A DNA stretch of 42,383 nt, from positions 1-42,383 of the forward strand of contig CAZYCR010000002.1 in the NCBI GenBank assembly GCA_964645815.1, written 5' to 3'. The number at the start of each line of letters is the position of its first letter. Positions within the stretch are counted from its first letter, which is position 1. Both the position numbers and the translations under genes were made by a program. The notes under the pieces are model-generated. The model had not been told where the DNA came from. It searched no databases and saw only the letters and a program-made list of their open reading frames with translations. The DNA is from an uncultured Gammaproteobacteria bacterium (GTDB lineage Bacteria; Patescibacteriota; Patescibacteriia; UBA9934). Shown here piece after piece: positions 3,088-7,779 of this stretch.

Positions 3088-3101
3088 GTCTTATCTATAT
3101 C

Positions 3102-3130
3102 TTGACAAAAACGCGAAAATCTGCTAAATT
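3102..3130 (+). promoter_or_regulatory. sigma70-type promoter P1 (TTGACA-17 nt-TAAATT) for GC-rich gene 1
   Basis: TTGACA at 3102-3107, a 17-nt spacer, TAAATT at 3125-3130, about 55 nt upstream of the start codon. Confidence 0.6.
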
Positions 3131-3138
3131 TTCGCGTT
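3110..3138. promoter_or_regulatory. operator-like 11-bp inverted repeat overlapping the P1 spacer and -10
   Basis: AACGCGAAAAT (3110-3120) and ATTTTCGCGTT (3128-3138) are exact reverse complements, separated by 7 nt. Confidence 0.4.
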
Positions 3139-3185
3139 CTTCAAATTGAAGACAAGTTCCTTAACCAATTAGTATGGAGGCCGTG

Positions 3186-4220
3186 ATGGCCAGAAATGAT
3201 AACCCGGTGAAGCGCAGCATCTTCCTCACCCCGGTCGAGCTGGGCGTGTGGGAGAAGCTGATTGACGGTGACGAACACTTCGTCACCGACCTCAAGGGCA
3301 AGGGCAGGTTCGACCGTAAAGCGGTGTGCCGAGCTGTTGCTCGTTTCGCTGACGCGAAGCTGTGCCTGCTCGACGGTCCGTGCGAAAACGATGCTACGGT
3401 GGTGAAGCTCACGGTCGATCCGACTGACTTCTACGTCATCGACGTGATCGACGGAGAACGCCCCCTCGCCACGATCGAAGAAGCCTACCTCGATATCTTC
3501 CGGGCGGTCGAGATGAAGGCGGGGAAGACCGGCGATCCACCGGGATTCATTCCGACCAAGTCGGGCTTCCGTATGGAATTCCGCGAGTGGCTGAAAAACC
3601 TCAGGAGTGATCTCAACCCCGGAACGGTCGGCAACAAGGTCTTCAGCTACAGGTCATGCGCCGAGGGCCATGTGCCGGTGGACTCTTTTGGCATCGTCAT
3701 GGTGCTGAAGTATGTCACCTGCATCTGCTGGCCCGGCATGGAGCCGGTCGACTTCCAGCTTCGAGAGCGGCCTCCCAGGCGCTTTCCGAAGCGGGAGTAC
3801 AATGGGCGCAAGGTACCGCTGCGAGGTGGTGAGCAGCTGTTCGAGCTGCTCGGTAGCAGGGGAACGAGCGCCGGCGATCAACTGCCCGCCGTCGACCGCG
3901 CACCGGAGCCGCCGCCCGTCGTGAACGAGCCGGGGCAGTTCGAGACCTTCGAGCTGCCCATCTTCACGGCGGAGGGACTCAAGACCCTCCACGGCGACGA
4001 GCTCGGCCACTACGCGGCGCGTAACCTCGATGGTCGCCGTGTTCTCGAGGAGAACACAACACTCATGGAGGCCGAGCTGGAGCATCGGCGTTCCATGGTC
4101 GAGGAGCTAGACCGGCAGATCGAGGCTATCGGGAATAGCCTCACGGCGCTACAGGAGCAGATGCAGCTCCTTGCCACGCGGCTCAAGGAGATCCGGGAGG
4201 AACGCACGAAGCTCCTCTAG
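3186..4220 (+). CDS. GC-rich hypothetical protein A (paralog of 4348-5226) with C-terminal coiled coil
   Basis: Long ORF with G/C-dominated third codon positions. GGAGG at 3176-3180 lies 5 nt before ATG 3186; ATG 3174 is the alternative start. The C-terminus is heptad-like and Leu/Glu/Gln-rich. No known motif recognised. Confidence 0.7.
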   Translation: MARNDNPVKRSIFLTPVELGVWEKLIDGDEHFVTDLKGKGRFDRKAVCRAVARFADAKLCLLDGPCENDATVVKLTVDPTDFYVIDVIDGERPLATIEEAYLDIFRAVEMKAGKTGDPPGFIPTKSGFRMEFREWLKNLRSDLNPGTVGNKVFSYRSCAEGHVPVDSFGIVMVLKYVTCICWPGMEPVDFQLRERPPRRFPKREYNGRKVPLRGGEQLFELLGSRGTSAGDQLPAVDRAPEPPPVVNEPGQFETFELPIFTAEGLKTLHGDELGHYAARNLDGRRVLEENTTLMEAELEHRRSMVEELDRQIEAIGNSLTALQEQMQLLATRLKEIREERTKLL

Positions 4221-4231
4221 CTCTACGTATA

Positions 4232-4275
4232 GCCGGCCAATTCCCAGGGGGAGTTGGCCGGCGCAATCTTTATAT
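4232..4275 (+). terminator. GC hairpin downstream of gene A (weak T tract)
   Basis: GCCGGCCAA (4232-4240) pairs with TTGGCCGGC (4254-4262), followed by GCAATCTTTATAT. Confidence 0.45.
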
Positions 4276-4281
4276 AAATAC

Positions 4282-4310
4282 TTGACTTTTTTAGCGGATT
4301 CGACCATAAT
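4282..4310 (+). promoter_or_regulatory. sigma70-type promoter P2 (TTGACT-17 nt-CATAAT) for GC-rich gene 2
   Basis: TTGACT at 4282-4287, a 17-nt spacer, CATAAT at 4305-4310. Confidence 0.6.
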
Positions 4311-4347
4311 ATGCGGTCGCTTCTTTCACCAGCGACAGAGGTGTCAC

Positions 4348-5226
4348 GTGCCACACAAAAAAGTTATCAAGCCCAGGTATTTTGCCTTCATGACTCCCAG
4401 GGAGCGAAAGCTCTGGGAGCTGCTGCGCGAAGGCCAGAAGTTCGAGACGTCACCGTACCGCAAGCAGATCGAACGCTTCCGGGTCTTTGGTCTCTTGGGC
4501 AGGAGCGAGAAGATGAGTCTCAGGCTTCTCCTCAAGCCGGAGGAGCTCGAGATCTTCCCGATCGACAAGAGATTGGAACGCGAGATCGAAGCCGACTACT
4601 TCGCCATCATCAGCGCCATCGTGTCCGGCGAGTTCCACCATGAAGGCACCGGGTTGACCGCTTCCCTGATGAACTTCATCGGAGAGGTCGCACCCAGTCT
4701 CAACACTGTATCGACCTACCGCAAGATGATCGTCGCGTCGACCGAGAAGATCCGCCAGGGGAAGAAGCCGTTCGAGGTGATCACCTCTGACTCCTCCAAC
4801 GTTCAGCTCTGTTGGAGAGGCTTCACGCGCTACGAGTTCATCCCTGTCAACAAGCCGGTGCGCAAGTGGCGACACCGTCTCAACAAGCCCAAGCTTGAGA
4901 CAGGGGGAGAGACGTCAGAGAAGGAGATCGACCAGGTCGAAGAGGTCGTGCGGACTGCGAGCAACGAGGCCGACGAAACCAACCCGATCACCGATCTGCT
5001 CAAGAGCATCGAGCAGCGACCTCTCGAAGACCTCCTCCGGCTCGAGGCAGGGCTTCCCGGCGTGTTGGAGACTGTTCGACGTCTCGTCGAACAGCGACGG
5101 AACCAGCATATCCAGGAGCTCGAAGCGAAGCTTCTGGAGCTGCAGCAACAACAGAGGACGCTCGAACTCGAGCTCGATGCACTGCGTCAGACCCGTATCT
5201 TCCTGGTCGGTTCCGAAGTGGCCTGA
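4348..5226 (+). CDS. GC-rich hypothetical protein B (paralog of 3186-4220) with C-terminal coiled coil
   Basis: GTG at 4348 is preceded by GAGGTG (4338-4343). This start gives an N-terminus colinear with protein A (FMTPRERKLWELL vs FLTPVELGVWEKL). The 4171 start in the ORF track would run through the terminator and P2. Confidence 0.7.
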   Translation: MPHKKVIKPRYFAFMTPRERKLWELLREGQKFETSPYRKQIERFRVFGLLGRSEKMSLRLLLKPEELEIFPIDKRLEREIEADYFAIISAIVSGEFHHEGTGLTASLMNFIGEVAPSLNTVSTYRKMIVASTEKIRQGKKPFEVITSDSSNVQLCWRGFTRYEFIPVNKPVRKWRHRLNKPKLETGGETSEKEIDQVEEVVRTASNEADETNPITDLLKSIEQRPLEDLLRLEAGLPGVLETVRRLVEQRRNQHIQELEAKLLELQQQQRTLELELDALRQTRIFLVGSEVA

Positions 5227-5243
5227 CCAACAACCTTTCTCGA

Positions 5244-5288
5244 CCCGCCGGCAGGTGCCGACGGGTTTTCTTTTATTTTTTTTGACCA
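5244..5288 (+). terminator. rho-independent terminator
   Basis: Hairpin CCCGCCGGC-AGGT-GCCGACGGG (one mismatch), followed directly by TTTTCTTTTATTTTTTTT. Confidence 0.75.
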
Positions 5289-5344
5289 ACTGAAGTATCA
5301 AAAATCACAGAATCGACCTACGAAAAGTTGGAACGGATGAAAAA

Positions 5345-5557
5345 TTATAATTTTTCAATTTCTCTTAAATCCTTGTCCGGAAGGTAAAGGATAATTAAAC
5401 CAATAATAATCCCGCTCACAGCCGTATAAACATGACCACCGTCGAAAATCCATTTATCAATGCCGTCCAGAACATACCAAATGCCACGCCAAATTAACAC
5501 GAGACCGATAACGATGGATATATTCTTTGCGAGATATTTGAACGTAATTTTTTTCAT
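5345..5557 (-). CDS. small two-TM membrane protein, unknown function
   Basis: 70-aa ORF with host-like A+T-rich composition and two hydrophobic stretches. Confidence 0.55.
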   Translation of the reverse strand: MKKITFKYLAKNISIVIGLVLIWRGIWYVLDGIDKWIFDGGHVYTAVSGIIIGLIILYLPDKDLREIEKL

Positions 5558-5594
5558 ATACGAACGTCAGTTTTTAAAAAATAACTTTAATTTT

Positions 5595-6080
5595 TTATTT
5601 TTCTATTGTTTCAATATTTTGTGGCAAGTCATCAATAGTTACTTCTATCACCTCGATTGGCTCATTGGTTTCCGAACTTCGGCATTGCATGCCTTTAAAA
5701 TCTTGAAACTTCTGTTTGTCTAAGACATAGACTCTGCCGATTTTTGTCCTTGTTGCTTCAAGTATATTTTTTGTCGCTGAAAAATGTAGCTTATCGCCAT
5801 CTATTCCAAATTGACTTGTAGATTCTCCTTTTACACCCCTAGTATCTGTTAATGCTCTAAATATGGCTACATCGGCATATGGTGTGGCGAAGACCGCAGG
5901 TTCGCCGTCCTTTTCCATATTTCCAGTTTCTTTACTGCGGTTATACGCTTGTCGAGGTTCCAAAACTGTTATGGTATCCGGAGAACCGTGAAAAACATAT
6001 TTGCCCTCTTTTTCAAGTAACAAAAGTCTTTCTCTATTTTTTCCTTCATTTTCAATTATTGGTGGTTTCTCAAAATCCAT
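5595..6080 (-). CDS. hypothetical protein
   Basis: 161-aa ORF with host-like composition, upstream of and co-oriented with 5345-5557. No family recognised. Confidence 0.6.
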   Translation of the reverse strand: MDFEKPPIIENEGKNRERLLLLEKEGKYVFHGSPDTITVLEPRQAYNRSKETGNMEKDGEPAVFATPYADVAIFRALTDTRGVKGESTSQFGIDGDKLHFSATKNILEATRTKIGRVYVLDKQKFQDFKGMQCRSSETNEPIEVIEVTIDDLPQNIETIEK

Positions 6081-6166
6081 AATAATAGAAAATTAAATTT
6101 TCTCCGTTGTTTGTAGCAATAACTTTAAAATTTTCTAAAGATTAAAATTTATTTCAGCTAACGTAT

Positions 6167-6177
6167 CCGAGTATGCG
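6167..6177. repeat. outer inverted repeat, left arm (CCGAGTATGCG)
   Basis: Exact reverse complement CGCATACTCGG at 6766-6776. Confidence 0.85.
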
Positions 6178-6180
6178 AAG

Positions 6181-6263
6181 TCCCGCTCTTCGTTTTCAGT
6201 ACAAACTTCCACATCACGACAATCCTATTTTAACACTCCAAACCCTCAATTTCAAGAGCGGGA
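6181..6263 (+). other. stem-loop, 10-bp stem around a 63-nt loop
   Basis: TCCCGCTCTT (6181-6190) pairs with AAGAGCGGGA (6254-6263). It lies between the outer and inner left repeat arms and has no counterpart on the right side. Confidence 0.6.
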
Positions 6264-6273
6264 TTTGGGTGGA

Positions 6274-6300
6274 GCAAGAGACAAATTGTGCGGATAATTT
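6274..6300. repeat. perfect 27-bp inverted repeat, left arm (GCAAGAGACAAATTGTGCGGATAATTT)
   Basis: Exact reverse complement at 6734-6760. Confidence 0.95.
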
Positions 6301-6333
6301 CATTATTCAAAGGGCATTTTTTGTTTTTTCGCC

Positions 6334-6362
6334 TTGACAGAATAGATGATCTATGTCTAAAT
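6334..6362 (+). promoter_or_regulatory. sigma70-type promoter P3 (TTGACA-17 nt-CTAAAT)
   Basis: TTGACA at 6334-6339, a 17-nt spacer containing the palindrome ATAGAT-G-ATCTAT, then CTAAAT at 6357-6362. Confidence 0.5.
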
Positions 6363-6393
6363 GATAGCACCTCGAACCTTAAGGGGGTACATT

Positions 6394-6636
6394 ATGGAGT
6401 ACGTGAAAAGCGAGATTGAGATGGCGGTGCGCGGTATCCTGTCGGCTTCGGTCAGTGAGGTAGATGCGAGACGGTCGTTGCTGATCATGCACGGCCAGCA
6501 CCTGCCCCGTGGTGTGAGCTTTCTTGGCTCGCTCTCTGTCGTCTTCGGCAGCACGGGGCGTCGGGCCCACTTCAGCCTCGCTCGCGGTGGCGACGACCTC
6601 ATGCCGATGGAGATTAGCGTCGAAGTCATGGAATGA
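6394..6636 (+). CDS. GC-rich small hypothetical protein (80 aa)
   Basis: AAGGGGG (6381-6387) lies 6 nt before ATG 6394, and third codon positions are G/C-rich. The call is short, and several overlapping ORFs exist on both strands, so it stays tentative. Confidence 0.5.
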   Translation: MEYVKSEIEMAVRGILSASVSEVDARRSLLIMHGQHLPRGVSFLGSLSVVFGSTGRRAHFSLARGGDDLMPMEISVEVME

Positions 6637-6658
6637 ACCGAGCCATCTCGATCGACCT

Positions 6659-6692
6659 GCGCCGGTGATATCCTTCGGGATTGATCCGGCGC
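6659..6692 (+). other. GC hairpin capped by a C(UUCG)G tetraloop, downstream of the small ORF
   Basis: GCGCCGG (6659-6665) pairs with CCGGCGC (6686-6692). The inner stem ATCC/GGAT closes a TTCG loop. No T tract follows on the + strand. Confidence 0.5.
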
Positions 6693-6733
6693 AAGCTCCC
6701 ACTTCAAGAAAAAAAAGTCCAATCAAAAATGAA

Positions 6734-6760
6734 AAATTATCCGCACAATTTGTCTCTTGC
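6734..6760. repeat. perfect 27-bp inverted repeat, right arm
   Basis: AAATTATCCGCACAATTTGTCTCTTGC is the reverse complement of 6274-6300. Confidence 0.95.
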
Positions 6761-6765
6761 GTAAC

Positions 6766-6776
6766 CGCATACTCGG
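6766..6776. repeat. outer inverted repeat, right arm (CGCATACTCGG)
   Basis: Reverse complement of 6167-6177. Confidence 0.85.
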
Positions 6777-6951
6777 TGTTTTACGAAAGTTCCGACGGGT
6801 TCATCGATTTAACGAAAGGATTACTGCCGTTCTTTTTTATTTGCACAAACTTTCAATACACCTCATTTACTAGTCGGAATTTCGTACAATGATCGCTGGC
6901 TTATACGAAGTGGCGGGAGGACGACGCAGTCGTCAAACCAACATTTCGCAT

Positions 6952-6967
6952 AAGCCCGCGCCCATTA
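6952..6967. repeat. 16-bp direct repeat copy 1 (AAGCCCGCGCCCATTA)
   Basis: Identical 16-mer at 8810-8825. It is embedded in a 12-bp-stem hairpin (GGCTTATACGAA/TTCGCATAAGCC, one mismatch). Confidence 0.8.
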
Positions 6968-6987
6968 TATGATGTAGCTAAAATTTT

Positions 6988-7728
6988 TCAAAACTTTTTT
7001 AAATCCTTTCTATAAGTCACGCCACGACCTATTTCAAATAATTCTTTTCTGCTGGATGTAGGCATCAGGGTTTCCATAAATATATGACTGGCGTGAATAT
7101 CCTTTACTTCATGAGTCAAAACGACATCACAAATGTGACCCTTGCAACGATTGGGTATGAAGGCAACAAGATAAGATTGTTTTTTATCAAAATACCTTGA
7201 ATCTTCAATAAACTCCGTATATTCACGGGCGCAGGCGTTGTCTATTTTTTTTGTCGATGCACGCAATATCTTTTCTGAAAAGTATAGACAGTCAGATCGG
7301 CCATCTTTACCGTGGTCATGACGCAAAATATCGGCTTCTGAAAAACCATGTTTATTGAAAATCTTTTTATATTCATCAGGTAAAGATGCATCTTCACCGC
7401 TTCGAAGACTGTATAAAGTATCACGTCGTTTACTTCGCTCTCGTGGGTGAAGTTCGCTCATTTCCTCATGAGCATGGTCATCGACAAAAAAAATAAATTC
7501 CACTTTTTTTCCACATTTAACCGCATACTCACCAACCTCACACGCTAATTCTAGGGTATATGGCGAAAAATGCCCCCAATACGAAATGCCCTCTAATGCG
7601 ATATCATTATCTTTTGAGTAAAAAAGTGGAAAGTGACCTCCGAGAAAAACAATCTTATCTTGTTGACTGGTTTTGACATCGTTCTTTAATATTTTTAGCA
7701 AGTCGCTTTGACTCTGTATTTTTTCCAT
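6988..7728 (-). CDS. hypothetical protein
   Basis: 246-aa ORF with host-like composition. No family recognised. Confidence 0.65.
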   Translation of the reverse strand: MEKIQSQSDLLKILKNDVKTSQQDKIVFLGGHFPLFYSKDNDIALEGISYWGHFSPYTLELACEVGEYAVKCGKKVEFIFFVDDHAHEEMSELHPRERSKRRDTLYSLRSGEDASLPDEYKKIFNKHGFSEADILRHDHGKDGRSDCLYFSEKILRASTKKIDNACAREYTEFIEDSRYFDKKQSYLVAFIPNRCKGHICDVVLTHEVKDIHASHIFMETLMPTSSRKELFEIGRGVTYRKDLKKF

Positions 7729-7779
7729 ATTTTGTGATTAAAAAAGTTTTAAAAAATTTCAAATTTCTTTTTCTCCTTA

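What the first reader, a model, noticed from the sequence alone, without database searches (positions are those of the whole stretch)
6167..6776. GC-rich mini-gene with its own promoter, enclosed by a perfect 27-bp inverted repeat nested in an 11-bp outer repeat
GCAAGAGACAAATTGTGCGGATAATTT (6274-6300) is exactly reverse-complemented at 6734-6760. A second pair, CCGAGTATGCG (6167-6177) / CGCATACTCGG (6766-6776), brackets it.

The 433-bp interior contains promoter P3, an SD, an 80-aa GC-rich ORF and a GC hairpin with a C(UUCG)G tetraloop. With the interior removed, the two 27-mers would form a seamless 54-bp perfect palindrome, as if the cassette had been inserted at the centre of a palindromic site.

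The left side alone carries an extra ~95-nt insert with a 10-bp-stem hairpin (6181-6263). Its loop (CTCCAAACCC) could pair with the downstream GGGTGGAG. No transposase, invertase or integrase is nearby, and I see no target-site duplication.

Options include a non-autonomous TIR element carrying a passenger gene, an invertible segment, or a palindrome-targeted insertion.
Basis: seen in the sequence. Interest (0 to 1): 0.7.

Follow-up and report, generated by a model that had tools for sequence, protein, structure and literature searches.

The report
Small gene nested in structured repeat
The perfect 27-bp inverted repeat is real: it is the stretched third arm of a conserved, roughly 95-nt three-armed DNA/RNA fold found repeatedly in related candidate-phyla (Patescibacteria) genomes, and in this copy that arm carries a complete small gene. 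It is therefore not a flip-switch or a jumping element of a known type.

Summary
The arms 6274-6300 and 6734-6760 are 27/27 complementary (0 expected by chance). The 11-bp outer pair and the left-side hairpin also exist.

The outer pair, the "extra" hairpin, GGGTGGAG and the GTAAC spacer are not separate oddities. Together they make one copy of a lineage-specific three-helix repeat:
- AAC-P1-H1-GGGTGRAG-H2-CKKAACC-P1'-GTT.
- I found it in four related metagenome contigs.
- The stems covary: 14 of 26 pairs carry compensatory changes. One G.U pair is invariant.

In the window, H2 is replaced by the 27-bp stem plus a 433-bp unit made of a promoter-like site, an SD, ORF80 and a hairpin.

- **ORF80 is a real gene.** It shows GC3 periodicity, has homologs at 44-54% identity, and gives a confident fold.
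- **The association is old.** A relative (L011) has the same repeat-plus-cassette in the same orientation at 72% DNA identity.
- **Other cassettes look the same.** Two more GC-rich mini-genes in L008 are bracketed by their own, different inverted repeats.
- **The repeat attracts mobile DNA.** An IS110-family element inserts at its 3' end in 3 of 3 copies.

The window contains no recombinase, there is no target-site duplication, and I found no second copy of the 27-mer. The inverton and classical TIR-transposon readings are therefore weak. The "inserted in a palindrome" reading is closest. What the fold does, as RNA or as single-stranded DNA, remains inferred.

The parts
6156..6166 (+). 5' boundary of the structured repeat: AGCTAAC-GTAT, with the conserved AAC(GT).
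   Evidence: Homology with L011 starts at window 6159. The same AACGT start is seen in L007, L008 and L001 copies.
6167..6177 (+). P1 5' strand, CCGAGTATGCG.
   Evidence: 11/11 complementary to 6766-6776 (I19). It is homologous to the covarying closing stem of the repeat in L007 and L008.
6178..6266 (+). H1: a 13-pair stem (6178-6190 with 6254-6266) and a 63-nt loop. The base of the stem is A-A-G-U / A-U-U-U with the conserved G.U.
   Evidence: (I14). H1 is present with different stem sequences and the same G.U in 7 of 7 copies. The loop carries a minus-strand promoter-like site, 6255->6227.
6267..6273 (+). Conserved junction, GGGTGGA of ATTTGGGTGGAG. GGT (6268-6270) pairs with ACC (6764-6766). 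GGA is one side of a purine-rich internal loop.
   Evidence: TGGGTGRAG is conserved in the L001, L007 and L008 copies. MFE folds agree.
6274..6300 (+). Left arm of the perfect 27-bp inverted repeat. It takes the place of the 5' strand of helix H2.
   Evidence: It is homologous to L011 5150-5176 at about 60% identity.
6312..6329 (+). Inner, degenerate inverted-repeat arm, GGGCATTTTTTGTTTTTT, just upstream of the promoter-like site. Its partner is 6706-6720.
   Evidence: Read. It corresponds in position to the 18-bp perfect repeat GGGCTCTTTTCAATTTTT / AAAAATTGAAAAGAGCCC of the L008 mini-gene.
6334..6363 (+). Promoter-like site: TTGACA, 18 nt, TAAATG.
   Evidence: Read. It was not called by the consensus scan. 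The -35 is TTGGCA in L011.
6381..6636 (+). SD (AAGGGGG, 6381-6387) and ORF80 (6394-6636, 80 aa).
   Evidence: GC3 periodicity. Homologs P0125, P0128 and P0129. Alignment A2 has 15 invariant columns. AF2 pLDDT is 84.5.
6658..6693 (+). 3' stem-loop of the ORF80 unit, with a C(UUCG)G loop.
   Evidence: It folds identically in the window and in L011, with a compensatory A-U to G-C change and a G.U possible only on the + strand. There is no T-run.
6706..6720 (+). Inner degenerate inverted-repeat arm, AAGAAAAAAAAGTCC. It lies in a block homologous to the 3' flank of an L008 mini-gene (TTCAAGAAAAA..CCAATCAAAATG..AAATTAT).
   Evidence: Sequences.
6734..6760 (+). Right arm of the perfect 27-bp inverted repeat. 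It takes the place of the 3' strand of helix H2.
6761..6780 (+). GTA (internal loop), ACC (pairs with GGT), P1 3' strand CGCATACTCGG (6766-6776, the outer repeat's right arm), then TGTT (3' boundary).
   Evidence: CKKAACC, P1' and (GC)TGTT are conserved in L007, L008 and L001. The IS110 insertion point in relatives is right after ..GTT.
6890..6965 (+). A second, simpler copy of the same repeat family: GGCTTATACG-AAGT-hairpin-CGCATAAGCC.
   Evidence: Folds with z = -5.2. Its 16-mer AAGCCCGCGCCCATTA recurs at 8810-8825.
5583..8788 (-). Context: three neighbouring minus-strand orphan genes, each bracketed by its own inverted repeat. The 161-aa gene has 5583-5602 / 6081-6100. The 246-aa gene has 6981-7002 / 7738-7759. 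The 316-aa gene has 7746-7781 / 8753-8788.
   Evidence: own-flank scores are 11, 16 and 19, against a maximum of 14 in 1640 cross-gene controls, while other genes score 5-9. The block containing the 246-aa gene plus its arms is the unit of homology with L001 and L002.

Best explanation
Window 6156-6780 is one copy of a lineage-specific structured repeat.

**The empty repeat.** In its empty form it is about 81-94 nt and folds as a three-way junction:
- a closing stem P1;
- hairpin H1, with an invariant G.U pair at its base;
- a conserved strand, ATNTGGGTGRAG;
- helix P3/H2, with a purine-rich internal loop;
- CKKAACC and then P1';
- the whole framed by AAC...GTT.

**This copy.** The tip of H2 carries a self-contained gene cassette: an A/T-rich upstream block, a TTGACA promoter-like site, an SD, the 80-aa ORF and a conserved 3' stem-loop. 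The 27-bp perfect inverted repeat is the stem that joins the cassette to the repeat. The stem lets the two halves of the repeat, which lie 487 nt apart (6273 to 6761), still come together.

**Shown:**
- the anatomy;
- its conservation and covariation in relatives;
- that ORF80 is a real gene family;
- that related GC-rich mini-genes also carry their own near-perfect flanking repeats with unrelated arm sequences;
- that an IS110-family element targets the repeat's 3' end.

**Inferred:**
- The arms are kept complementary by selection, or by arm-to-arm conversion, because the element acts as a folded single strand.
- The acting strand is the + strand, as shown by G.U and G.A features that would be C.A and C.U on the other strand.
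- The acting form is either a read-through RNA, with the long stem as a processing or insulating duplex around the ORF80 message, or single-stranded DNA recognised by a structure-specific recombinase.
- The repeat is a landing pad at which accessory cassettes and IS elements accumulate.

The element is non-autonomous. There is no sign that it is currently inverting or transposing.
For: - **Inverted repeat.** The 27-bp repeat and the outer pair are real and non-random.
- **Same fold in relatives.** Four complete copies fold by MFE to the same three-way junction: the window copy (with its interior replaced by a GAAA loop), L008 4188-4278, L007 341-434 and L008 2180-2260.
- **Model search.** A covariance model built from the single L008 copy finds L007 (E 5e-11), L001 (5.5e-11), L008a (4e-8) and L007a (0.007). 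It finds nothing in 9 unrelated loci.
- **Covariation.** On that alignment 94.6% of cells pair and 14 of 26 pairs have compensatory changes. 0 of 500 shuffles reach this, and slid controls give 31-47% pairing.
- **H1.** The H1 base keeps G.U in 7 of 7 copies, with the neighbouring pair switching between A-U, C-G and U-A.
- **Window copy.** It has every conserved piece in order: AACGT, P1, AAGT, H1, ATTTGGGTGGAG, [27-bp stem], GTAACC, P1', TGTT.
- **Age and orientation.** L011-L014 carry the same left half, promoter-like site, ORF and 3' hairpin in the same order and orientation at 72-80% identity.
- **L008 cassettes.** The two L008 mini-genes have an 18-bp perfect and a 23-nt (1 mismatch) flanking repeat with different sequences.
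- **ORF80 is coding.** GC3 periodicity, homologs and a confident model.
- **IS110.** Its insertions sit right after ...GTT in L001, L007 and L008.
Against: - No + strand promoter is predicted upstream of the repeat in the window. An RNA containing the left arm is therefore not supported by sequence signals.
- Two L008 cassettes lie between repeat copies rather than inside H2. The flanking repeat may therefore belong to the cassette rather than to the repeat.
- The covariation alignment has only 5 sequences and was fitted to the model.
- The repeat on its own (6160-6305) is not thermodynamically unusual: z = -0.65 and -0.11.
- In L011 the right arm is reduced to a 13-nt partner 1.5 kb away, beyond a Fic gene. 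The long stem is therefore not indispensable for persistence.
- I have no expression, read-level or whole-genome data.
Confidence: 0.6

Rival explanations
1. This is an integron-like system. The three-helix repeat is an attC-type, structure-specific recombination site acting as folded single-stranded DNA. The region 3090-8830 is a cassette array without a nearby integrase (CALIN-like). The ORF80 unit is a cassette lodged in the variable terminal structure of one site.
For: - The repeat is framed by AAC...GTT. Some copies match RYYYAAC and GTTRRRY exactly: ATTTAAC...GTTAGGC in L008 4184-4285, and ACCTAAC in L008c.
- It has unpaired 4-nt spacers next to P1, its structure is conserved while its sequence varies, and the empty copies are 81-94 nt long.
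- L008 shows repeat-cassette-repeat-cassette-repeat, all in one orientation.
- IS110/IS1111 relatives are known to target one end of attC sites and REP sequences (PMC11187229).
- The cassette genes are orphans of deviating GC content.
Against: - None of the 39 ORFs scanned in the window is a tyrosine recombinase.
- The window copy's ends are AGCTAAC and GTTTTAC, each off consensus.
- The cassettes carry their own promoter-like sites, and three neighbouring genes lie on the opposite strand to the repeat.
- The asymmetry favours folding of the strand that corresponds to the attC top strand, whereas integrons recombine the bottom strand (PMC5027507).
- No attC site is known to hold a gene.
- I could not run an attC model.
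Confidence: 0.13
2. This is a non-autonomous transposon (MITE-like, with a passenger gene). The 27-bp arms are terminal inverted repeats recognised by a transposase encoded elsewhere.
For: - The terminal repeats are perfect.
- Cassettes in L008, L001 and the window share short similar ends (..CGGATAATTT / AAATTATCCG....AAATAATT.. / ..AATTATTT..) and homologous sub-terminal blocks.
- The genomic context differs between the window and L011.
Against: - There is no target-site duplication.
- The 27-mer is unique in the window and absent from GTDB species genomes, JGI metagenomes and IMG/VR.
- The arms differ strongly between cassettes and between the window and L011, while staying complementary within a cassette. 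That is covariation, not a conserved transposase-binding site.
- The junction with the repeat is shared with L011, so the insertion is old.
Confidence: 0.12
3. This is an invertible segment (inverton) flipped by a recombinase, or by homologous recombination between the arms. Flipping would switch read-out towards the 161-aa gene or against the 246-aa gene.
For: - Perfect 27-bp inverted repeats enclose a promoter-like site.
- Arm identity could be maintained by flip-flop recombination.
- The flanking genes lie on the opposite strand.
Against: - There is no recombinase in 42 kb.
- The orientation is identical in the window and in four contigs from four samples.
- The promoter-like site is followed by a complete ORF and a conserved stem-loop inside the segment.
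- The arm sequence is not shared by the other bracketed cassettes, so there is no common recombinase site.
Confidence: 0.08
4. This is a chance repeat, or an assembly artefact that joined foreign GC-rich DNA through a shared k-mer.
For: - The source is a metagenome-assembled contig.
- The interior is GC-rich in a 42% GC contig.
Against: - Zero matches are expected by chance.
- The GC shift occurs at the ORF boundaries, inside the interior, not at the arms.
- The same architecture was assembled independently in L011-L014 and L008.
Confidence: 0.02

Closest known systems
Integron attC sites and cassette arrays (including CALINs)
   Same: - A structure-defined site of about 60-140 nt, framed by AAC...GTT, with a variable sequence and a conserved fold.
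- The sites alternate with orphan genes of odd GC content.
- The site is a target of an IS110/IS1111-type element.
   Different: - No integrase was seen.
- The fold is a three-way junction with a conserved internal strand.
- The genes have their own promoter-like sites.
- One gene sits inside the site.
- The strand asymmetry points to the other strand.
REP / REPIN / BIME interspersed palindromic repeats
   Same: - Short GC-rich intergenic hairpin repeats with compensatory changes.
- Natural targets of IS110/IS1111 elements (ISPa11 targets REP; PMC11187229).
   Different: - A branched fold rather than a simple hairpin.
- No RAYT gene was seen.
- Copy number in the genome is unknown.
- REPs are not known to carry a gene in a hairpin tip.
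Phage morons (autonomous promoter-gene-terminator units with deviating GC content)
   Same: - ORF80 and the other GC-rich islands are single genes with their own promoter-like site, SD and 3' hairpin, set in AT-richer DNA.
- The ORF80 homolog in L009 and L010 heads a tandem row of such units.
   Different: - The units are not in a recognisable prophage. There are no PHROG hits and the neighbours are housekeeping genes.
- Morons are not known to be bracketed by inverted repeats.
Invertons (phase-variable invertible promoters)
   Same: Inverted repeats of 10-30 bp flank a few hundred bp that contain a promoter.
   Different: - No invertase.
- Only one orientation was seen.
- The regulated gene lies inside the segment.
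ORFs housed in peripheral loops of structured RNAs (group I/II intron ORFs), and rRNA processing stems
   Same: - Cargo is tolerated at the tip of a helix of a conserved fold.
- A long stem brings the distant flanks together.
   Different: - No intron or ribozyme core was detected. Rfam gave no hit.
- The cargo has its own promoter-like site.
- Transcription of the whole fold has not been shown.

Membership tests
Inverton | Inverted repeats flank a promoter-bearing segment. | tested here: met
   27-bp perfect arms. TTGACA lies inside at 6334-6339.
Inverton | Both orientations are found in a population. | tested here: not met
   The same orientation is seen in the window and in L011-L014, which come from four samples. 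This is assembly-level evidence only. Reads were not available.
Inverton | An invertase (serine or tyrosine recombinase) is encoded nearby. | tested here: not met
   Pfam scans of 39 ORFs covering the window found none. The rest of the genome could not be tested.
TIR transposon / MITE | A target-site duplication flanks the terminal repeats. | tested here: not met
   The flanks are ..GGGTGGA|arm and arm|GTAACC.., and for the outer pair ..AACGTAT| and |TGTTTTA.
TIR transposon / MITE | Multiple copies share the same terminal repeat. | tested here: not met
   The 27-mer occurs only as this pair in the window. It has 0 hits in GTDB genomes, JGI metagenomes and IMG/VR. Related cassettes have different arms.
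Integron attC site | RYYYAAC ... GTTRRRY termini with the conserved AAC/GTT. | tested here: inconclusive
   AAC...GTT is present in all complete copies. The full consensus is met in L008b (ATTTAAC / GTTAGGC). The window has AGCTAAC / GTTTTAC.
Integron attC site | A hairpin of 57-141 nt with extrahelical bases, an unpaired central spacer and a variable terminal structure. | tested here: inconclusive
   The empty copies are 81-94 nt, with 4-nt unpaired spacers and a branched variable part. Extrahelical bases were not identified. The window copy is 625 nt.
Integron attC site | An integron integrase (IntI) in the locus or genome. | tested here: not met
   There is none in the window. The rest of the genome is not available.
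REP / REPIN | Many dispersed copies per genome and a cognate RAYT (Y1) transposase. | not testable with these tools
   Only single contigs are available. Three contigs totalling 9.2 kb hold seven copies, two of them cut by contig ends (L001 two, L007 two, L008 three). L011 adds two more. The 42-kb window holds two copies plus a fragment. No Y1 transposase was seen.
Phage moron | A single gene with its own promoter and terminator and a GC content unlike its surroundings. | tested here: met
   The promoter -10 is weak and the 3' hairpin lacks a T-run.
Phage moron | Located in a phage or prophage genome. | tested here: not met
   There are no PHROG hits, no phage blastn hit and no relative in IMG/VR. 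The neighbours are ATP synthase, aaRS genes and similar.
Any Rfam RNA family | A covariance-model match. | tested here: not met
   Only tRNAs reach gathering score. Nothing credible appears at E up to 10 on 5900-7100, or on L001, L007 and L008, which hold empty copies.
IS110-family element | A DEDD transposase with a long non-coding end. | tested here: not met
   It is present in L001, L007 and L008 next to the repeat but absent from the window.

The most novel reading that the evidence does not exclude
Patescibacteria of this lineage may have a structure-defined gene-cassette system. Autonomous promoter-gene units would be carried at the tip of, or between, copies of a conserved three-helix single-strand fold. 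The cassette's flanking arms would co-evolve to stay complementary.

The fold would be the recombination or processing site. In function it would be analogous to an integron attC site or to an rRNA processing stem, but it would be unrelated to either. The fold also serves as the safe-harbour target of an RNA-guided IS110 recombinase.
Probability: 0.2. Interest if true: 0.8.

Novelty: new variant of a known kind. Interest (0 to 1): 0.6.

Why it matters
Candidate-phyla-radiation bacteria have tiny genomes, and how they gain accessory genes is poorly understood. This locus shows a recurring, structure-conserved repeat at which three things accumulate: orphan genes of foreign composition, a Fic toxin gene and IS110 elements. 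It also shows a gene kept inside one arm of that fold by a perfectly complementary stem.

If the fold is a recombination site, it would be an integron-like capture platform in a phylum where my searches of the held literature found none described.

If the fold is an RNA, it is a new structured RNA class that tolerates a whole gene in a helix tip.

Either way it gives a concrete, searchable signature (AACGT..GYGANGT-hairpin-ATNTGGGTGRAG-hairpin-CKKAACC..GTT) for finding variable regions in these genomes.

Tried and rejected
- **Exact 27-mer scans.** GTDB species genomes, JGI metagenomes and IMG/VR gave no hits.
- **blastn of 6100-6990.** No hit against phage or plasmid collections.
- **Exact-protein look-ups.** Look-ups of ORF80 and of the 161-aa protein found no contig.
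- **Rfam.** No hit at gathering score or at relaxed thresholds, on the window or on L001, L007 and L008.
- **Folding the left part alone.** It is not exceptional: z = -0.65 and -0.11.
- **Loop-to-junction pseudoknot** (CTCCAAACCC with GGGTGGAG). Rejected, because other copies and L011 lack it.
- **Hammerhead-like reading of GCGANGU.** Rejected: the junctions are 1/1/0 nt, there is no GAAA strand, and Rfam gives no hit.
- **Empty site by synteny through the 246-aa gene.** This failed. Neighbours differ even at 88-89% DNA identity, and at 74% amino-acid identity.
- **Flanking repeats around the large GC islands 1 and 3.** None found.
- **Function of ORF80 and its neighbours.** No Pfam, PHROG, PADLOC or NCBIfam hit, no PDB sequence or fold match, and no relative in viral contigs.
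- **MAFFT plus RNAalifold on four copies.** It recovered only H1, because indels shift P1 and H2. I therefore built a covariance model from one copy and aligned the others to it.
- **Literature searches.** Searches for integrons or attC sites in CPR or Patescibacteria, and for similar bracketed cassettes, gave nothing relevant.
Full report
**1. The observation**

- The arms 6274-6300 and 6734-6760 are 27/27 complementary with 433 nt between them.
- The outer pair 6167-6177 / 6766-6776 is 11/11 complementary.
- A hairpin lies between the outer and inner left arms.
- The 27-mer occurs only at these two places in the window, even with 3 mismatches, and never in 100 shuffles.
- In the whole window there are only four dispersed perfect inverted repeats of at least 15 nt. 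All lie in 6274-8776. Composition-preserving shuffles give 0.07.

Minor corrections:
- The hairpin stem is 13 pairs (6178-6190 with 6254-6266), not 10.
- The promoter has a perfect -35 but a weak -10, and the scan did not call it.
- The GC hairpin (6658-6693) has no T-run.
- The suggested loop-to-GGGTGGAG pairing is not conserved elsewhere.

**2. Setting**

The window is a 42% GC contig of a Patescibacteria (CPR) bacterium. The nearest source-named relative of a neighbouring gene is annotated Candidatus Uhrbacteria. The contig is full of housekeeping genes: MetRS, TatD, the ATP synthase operon, an AddA-like helicase, MreBC, PBP2, GreA, several aaRS genes and ClpB. None of the 39 ORFs scanned is a recombinase or transposase.

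The element lies in a variable stretch, about 3090-8830, between a glutamine amidotransferase gene and the atp operon. That stretch holds orphan genes only. Three islands in the window are GC-rich: 3174-5226, 6394-6700 and 39267-39818. All three show strong codon-position periodicity, with GC3 of 0.75-0.90 against about 0.3 for host genes. They are therefore coding, and compositionally foreign.

**3. ORF80 is a real gene**
- A word-indexed search of 5.8 billion proteins found only the protein itself.
- An exhaustive phmmer search of 1.84 billion representatives found a small family: P0125 (78 aa, 54% identity, E 1e-16), P0129 (80 aa, 44%), P0128 (104 aa, 47%) and P0131.
- The alignment has 15 invariant columns and a motif AVR.IL..AR..IMHGQ.LP.G.
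- A single-sequence AlphaFold model is confident: pLDDT 84.5, two helices and a three-stranded sheet.
- The model matches nothing in the PDB. No function can be assigned.

Contexts of the homologs:
- In L009 and L010 the homolog is the first of four tandem small genes. Each has its own TTGAC-type promoter and terminator, in a 36% GC contig, and there is no inverted repeat.
- In L017 the homolog sits in a 63% GC contig.

**4. The key result: the outer features are one conserved structured repeat**

A close homolog of the neighbouring 246-aa gene led to contig L001. There an IS110-family transposase sits next to sequences resembling window 6160-6276. Using that transposase as a probe gave L007 and L008.

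These contigs contain several copies of a motif with the order: AACGT, P1 strand (..GTATGCGA), NGT, hairpin H1, ATNTGGGTGRAG, hairpin H2, CKKAACC, P1' strand (CGCATA..), (GC)TGTT.

The window has every piece in the same order:

| Piece | Window coordinates |
|---|---|
| AACGT | 6160-6164 |
| P1 = the left outer 11-mer | 6167-6177 |
| AAGT + H1 = the "extra" hairpin | 6178-6266 |
| GGGTGGA | 6267-6273 |
| GTAACC | 6761-6766 |
| P1' = the right outer 11-mer | 6766-6776 |
| TGTT | 6777-6780 |

Only H2 differs. It is a 3-8 bp hairpin elsewhere. In the window it is the 27-bp stem plus the 433-bp interior.

Evidence for the fold:
- Independent MFE folds of four copies give the same three-way junction.
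- A covariance model built from the single copy L008 4188-4278 recovers the others (E 5e-11, 5.5e-11, 4e-8 and 0.007). It finds nothing in nine unrelated loci.
- On the resulting alignment 94.6% of cells pair and 14 of 26 pairs carry compensatory double changes. No shuffle out of 500 reaches this, and slid controls pair at 31-47%.
- Caveats: there are five sequences, and the alignment was fitted to the model.
- An independent MAFFT/RNAalifold run recovers H1, with 6 of 10 covarying pairs.
- The base of H1 keeps a G.U in 7 of 7 copies while its neighbour switches between A-U, C-G and U-A.
- P3 contains a GAAG/CUGA or GGA/GUA internal loop, of the tandem G.A type.

These asymmetric features exist only on the + strand, which is also the sense strand of the mini-genes. 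The fold therefore matters in a single-stranded form of that strand. Rfam has no such family.

**5. The cassette-in-repeat arrangement is old and has a fixed orientation**

Contigs L011-L014 come from four JGI samples. They carry a DNA-level homolog of the element:
- Window 6159-6351 aligns to L011 5036-5225 at 72% identity, and window 6646-6704 to L011 5518-5576 at 80%.
- The order and orientation are the same: P1 strand, H1 with its long loop, GGGT..AG, left arm, promoter-like site, ORF, UUCG hairpin.
- Homology begins exactly at ..TAAC|GTATCC.

The L011 copy is decaying:
- The -35 is TTGGCA.
- The ORF has an in-frame TAG.
- H1 has mismatches.
- A Fic gene follows the hairpin.
- Only a 13-nt (1 mismatch) partner of the left arm remains, 1.5 kb away.

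The 3' hairpin of the ORF80 unit is conserved, with one compensatory change and a G.U that only the + strand allows.

Two conclusions follow:
- The window's perfect arms are not explained by a recent insertion.
- The left arms of the window and L011 are only about 60% alike, yet in the window both arms are identical. This points to selection for pairing, or to arm-to-arm conversion.

**6. Bracketing inverted repeats are a regional habit**

- In L008 two further GC-rich mini-genes (95 and 81 aa) each have TTGACA-17-TATAGT or TATTAT, an SD and a terminator.
- Each is bracketed by its own repeat: 18 bp perfect, and 23 nt with one mismatch. The arm sequences are unrelated to each other and to the window's.
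- Their sub-terminal blocks are homologous to the window's (..ATAATT.., GGGC.TTTT.., TTCAAGAAAAA..CCAATCAAAATG..AAATTAT).
- In the window, the three neighbouring AT-rich orphan genes (161, 246 and 316 aa) are also bracketed by their own repeats. None of the other 38 genes tested is.
- The block made of the 246-aa gene plus its arms is exactly the unit of homology with L001 and L002, whose flanks all differ.
- L001 rc 1-100 and L008 4866-4931 are cut by contig ends. Each shows the 5' half of the repeat running into a long arm ending ..CGGGATTATTT or ..GCGGTATAATT, like the window's ..GCGGATAATTT. This suggests that cargo in H2 recurs, but it is not proven.

**7. An IS110 element targets the repeat**

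In L001, L007 and L008 the IS110-family element (long non-coding end upstream of the transposase gene) begins immediately after ..GCTGTT at the 3' end of the repeat. L008 4188-4290 shows the uninterrupted site..GCTGTTAGGCGAGGG. IS110/IS1111 elements are known to target one end of attC sites and REP sequences (PMC11187229). The repeat is therefore a recognised landing site for mobile DNA in this lineage.

**8. Explanation and rivals**

Best supported: the finding is a non-autonomous gene cassette held in the third helix of a conserved three-helix repeat. The 27-bp repeat is the stem that keeps the split repeat foldable.

What the fold does is inferred. There are two possibilities.
- **A read-through + strand RNA.** A 27-bp duplex would be an RNase III-type substrate around the ORF80 message. 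However, no upstream + strand promoter is predicted.
- **A structure-specific single-stranded DNA site, like attC or REP.** AAC..GTT framing, partial RYYYAAC/GTTRRRY matches, cassette-repeat alternation in L008 and IS110 targeting all fit. However, there is no integrase, the cassettes have their own promoter-like sites, and the asymmetry is on the strand corresponding to the attC top strand (PMC5027507).

Less likely readings:
- The inverton reading lacks a recombinase, lacks a second orientation, and has no out-reading promoter.
- The TIR-transposon reading lacks a target-site duplication, further copies, and conserved arms.
- Chance or misassembly is excluded by statistics and by independent assemblies.

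**9. Novelty**

The individual ingredients are all known kinds: interspersed structured repeats, IS110 targeting, and moron-like genes. Three things are not described in the libraries and papers I could search:
- a three-way-junction repeat with covarying stems in CPR genomes;
- a complete gene kept in one of its helices by a perfect stem;
- neighbouring cassettes that each maintain their own complementary flanks.

I rate it a new variant of a known kind, of moderate to high interest. The mechanism is still open.

Noticed in passing
window 38912-39171: There are 2.1 tandem copies (99% identical) of a 91-nt unit that starts with the first ~13 nt of the adjacent tRNA-Ala (39095-39171). Directly downstream of the tRNA lies a GC-rich (GC3 0.90) orphan lipoprotein-like gene with its own TTGACA-17-TATTAT promoter (39267-39818, minus strand). 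This looks like repeated integration at the tRNA 5' end.
   Followed up: partly
window 3090-5300: GC island 1 has two distant paralogs (348 and about 281 aa, 21% identity), about 60% GC with GC3 of 0.79-0.80. A search with the first paralog found only itself, so it has no homolog elsewhere. The promoter TTGACA-17-TAAATT is overlapped by a perfect 11-bp palindrome, AACGCGAAAAT..ATTTTCGCGTT (operator-like). A classic terminator lies at about 5235-5280.
   Followed up: partly
window 6988-7728 (246-aa gene): The coding sequence itself contains long-range perfect inverted repeats: 7164-7184 / 7645-7665 (21 nt) and 7243-7259 / 7479-7495 (17 nt), in addition to the bracket outside the gene. They are conserved in L001 and L002, and absent in homologs at 74% identity or lower. 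They were never reached in 300 synonymous-codon shuffles, where the maximum was 15. The protein family spans CPR bacteria and DPANN archaea.
   Followed up: partly
window 6227-6255 and 6964-6991 (minus strand): There are two strong promoter-like sites. TTGAAA-17-TGtTAAAAT lies inside the long loop of hairpin H1 and points at the 161-aa gene. TTGAAA-16-TATAAT (11 of 12 matches) lies just after the stop of the 246-aa gene and points antisense through the whole element. A transcript from the second site would contain both 27-nt arms.
   Followed up: no
L001 897-2309, L007 435-1767, L008 2261-3581: These are IS110-family elements (DEDD_Tnp_IS110 + Transposase_20) with a non-coding end of roughly 275-380 nt upstream of the transposase gene. 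That end contains the strings TGCTGTTA and CGCTGTTGG, identical to the target ..GCTGTT. These are candidates for the guide segments of a bridge or seeker RNA.
   Followed up: partly
L011 5524-6560: A Fic / 'mobile mystery protein B'-like gene, with a 14-bp perfect palindrome upstream of it (6519-6559), lies between the ORF80 homolog and the remnant of the right arm. It is another accessory gene gathered at the same repeat.
   Followed up: no
window 16254-16347: The tRNA gene is unusually long (94 nt). ARAGORN calls it Asn with anticodon ATT. Rfam scores it 41.5 bits. It may be a mis-typed class II tRNA or one that contains an intron.
   Followed up: no
window 6952-6967 and 8810-8825: A perfect 16-mer, AAGCCCGCGCCCATTA, is shared by the second structured repeat (6890-6965, fold z = -5.2) and a GC-rich fragment upstream of the 316-aa gene. 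The same repeat family therefore punctuates both ends of the cassette region.
   Followed up: partly
L017 480-640 and 990-1120: In the 63% GC contig that carries an ORF80 homolog, consecutive small genes are each preceded by a repeated motif, TTTATG(A)GTGGACGA..N..GATAMG. It looks like a distinct promoter type, and the contig is a possible high-GC source of these mini-genes.
   Followed up: no
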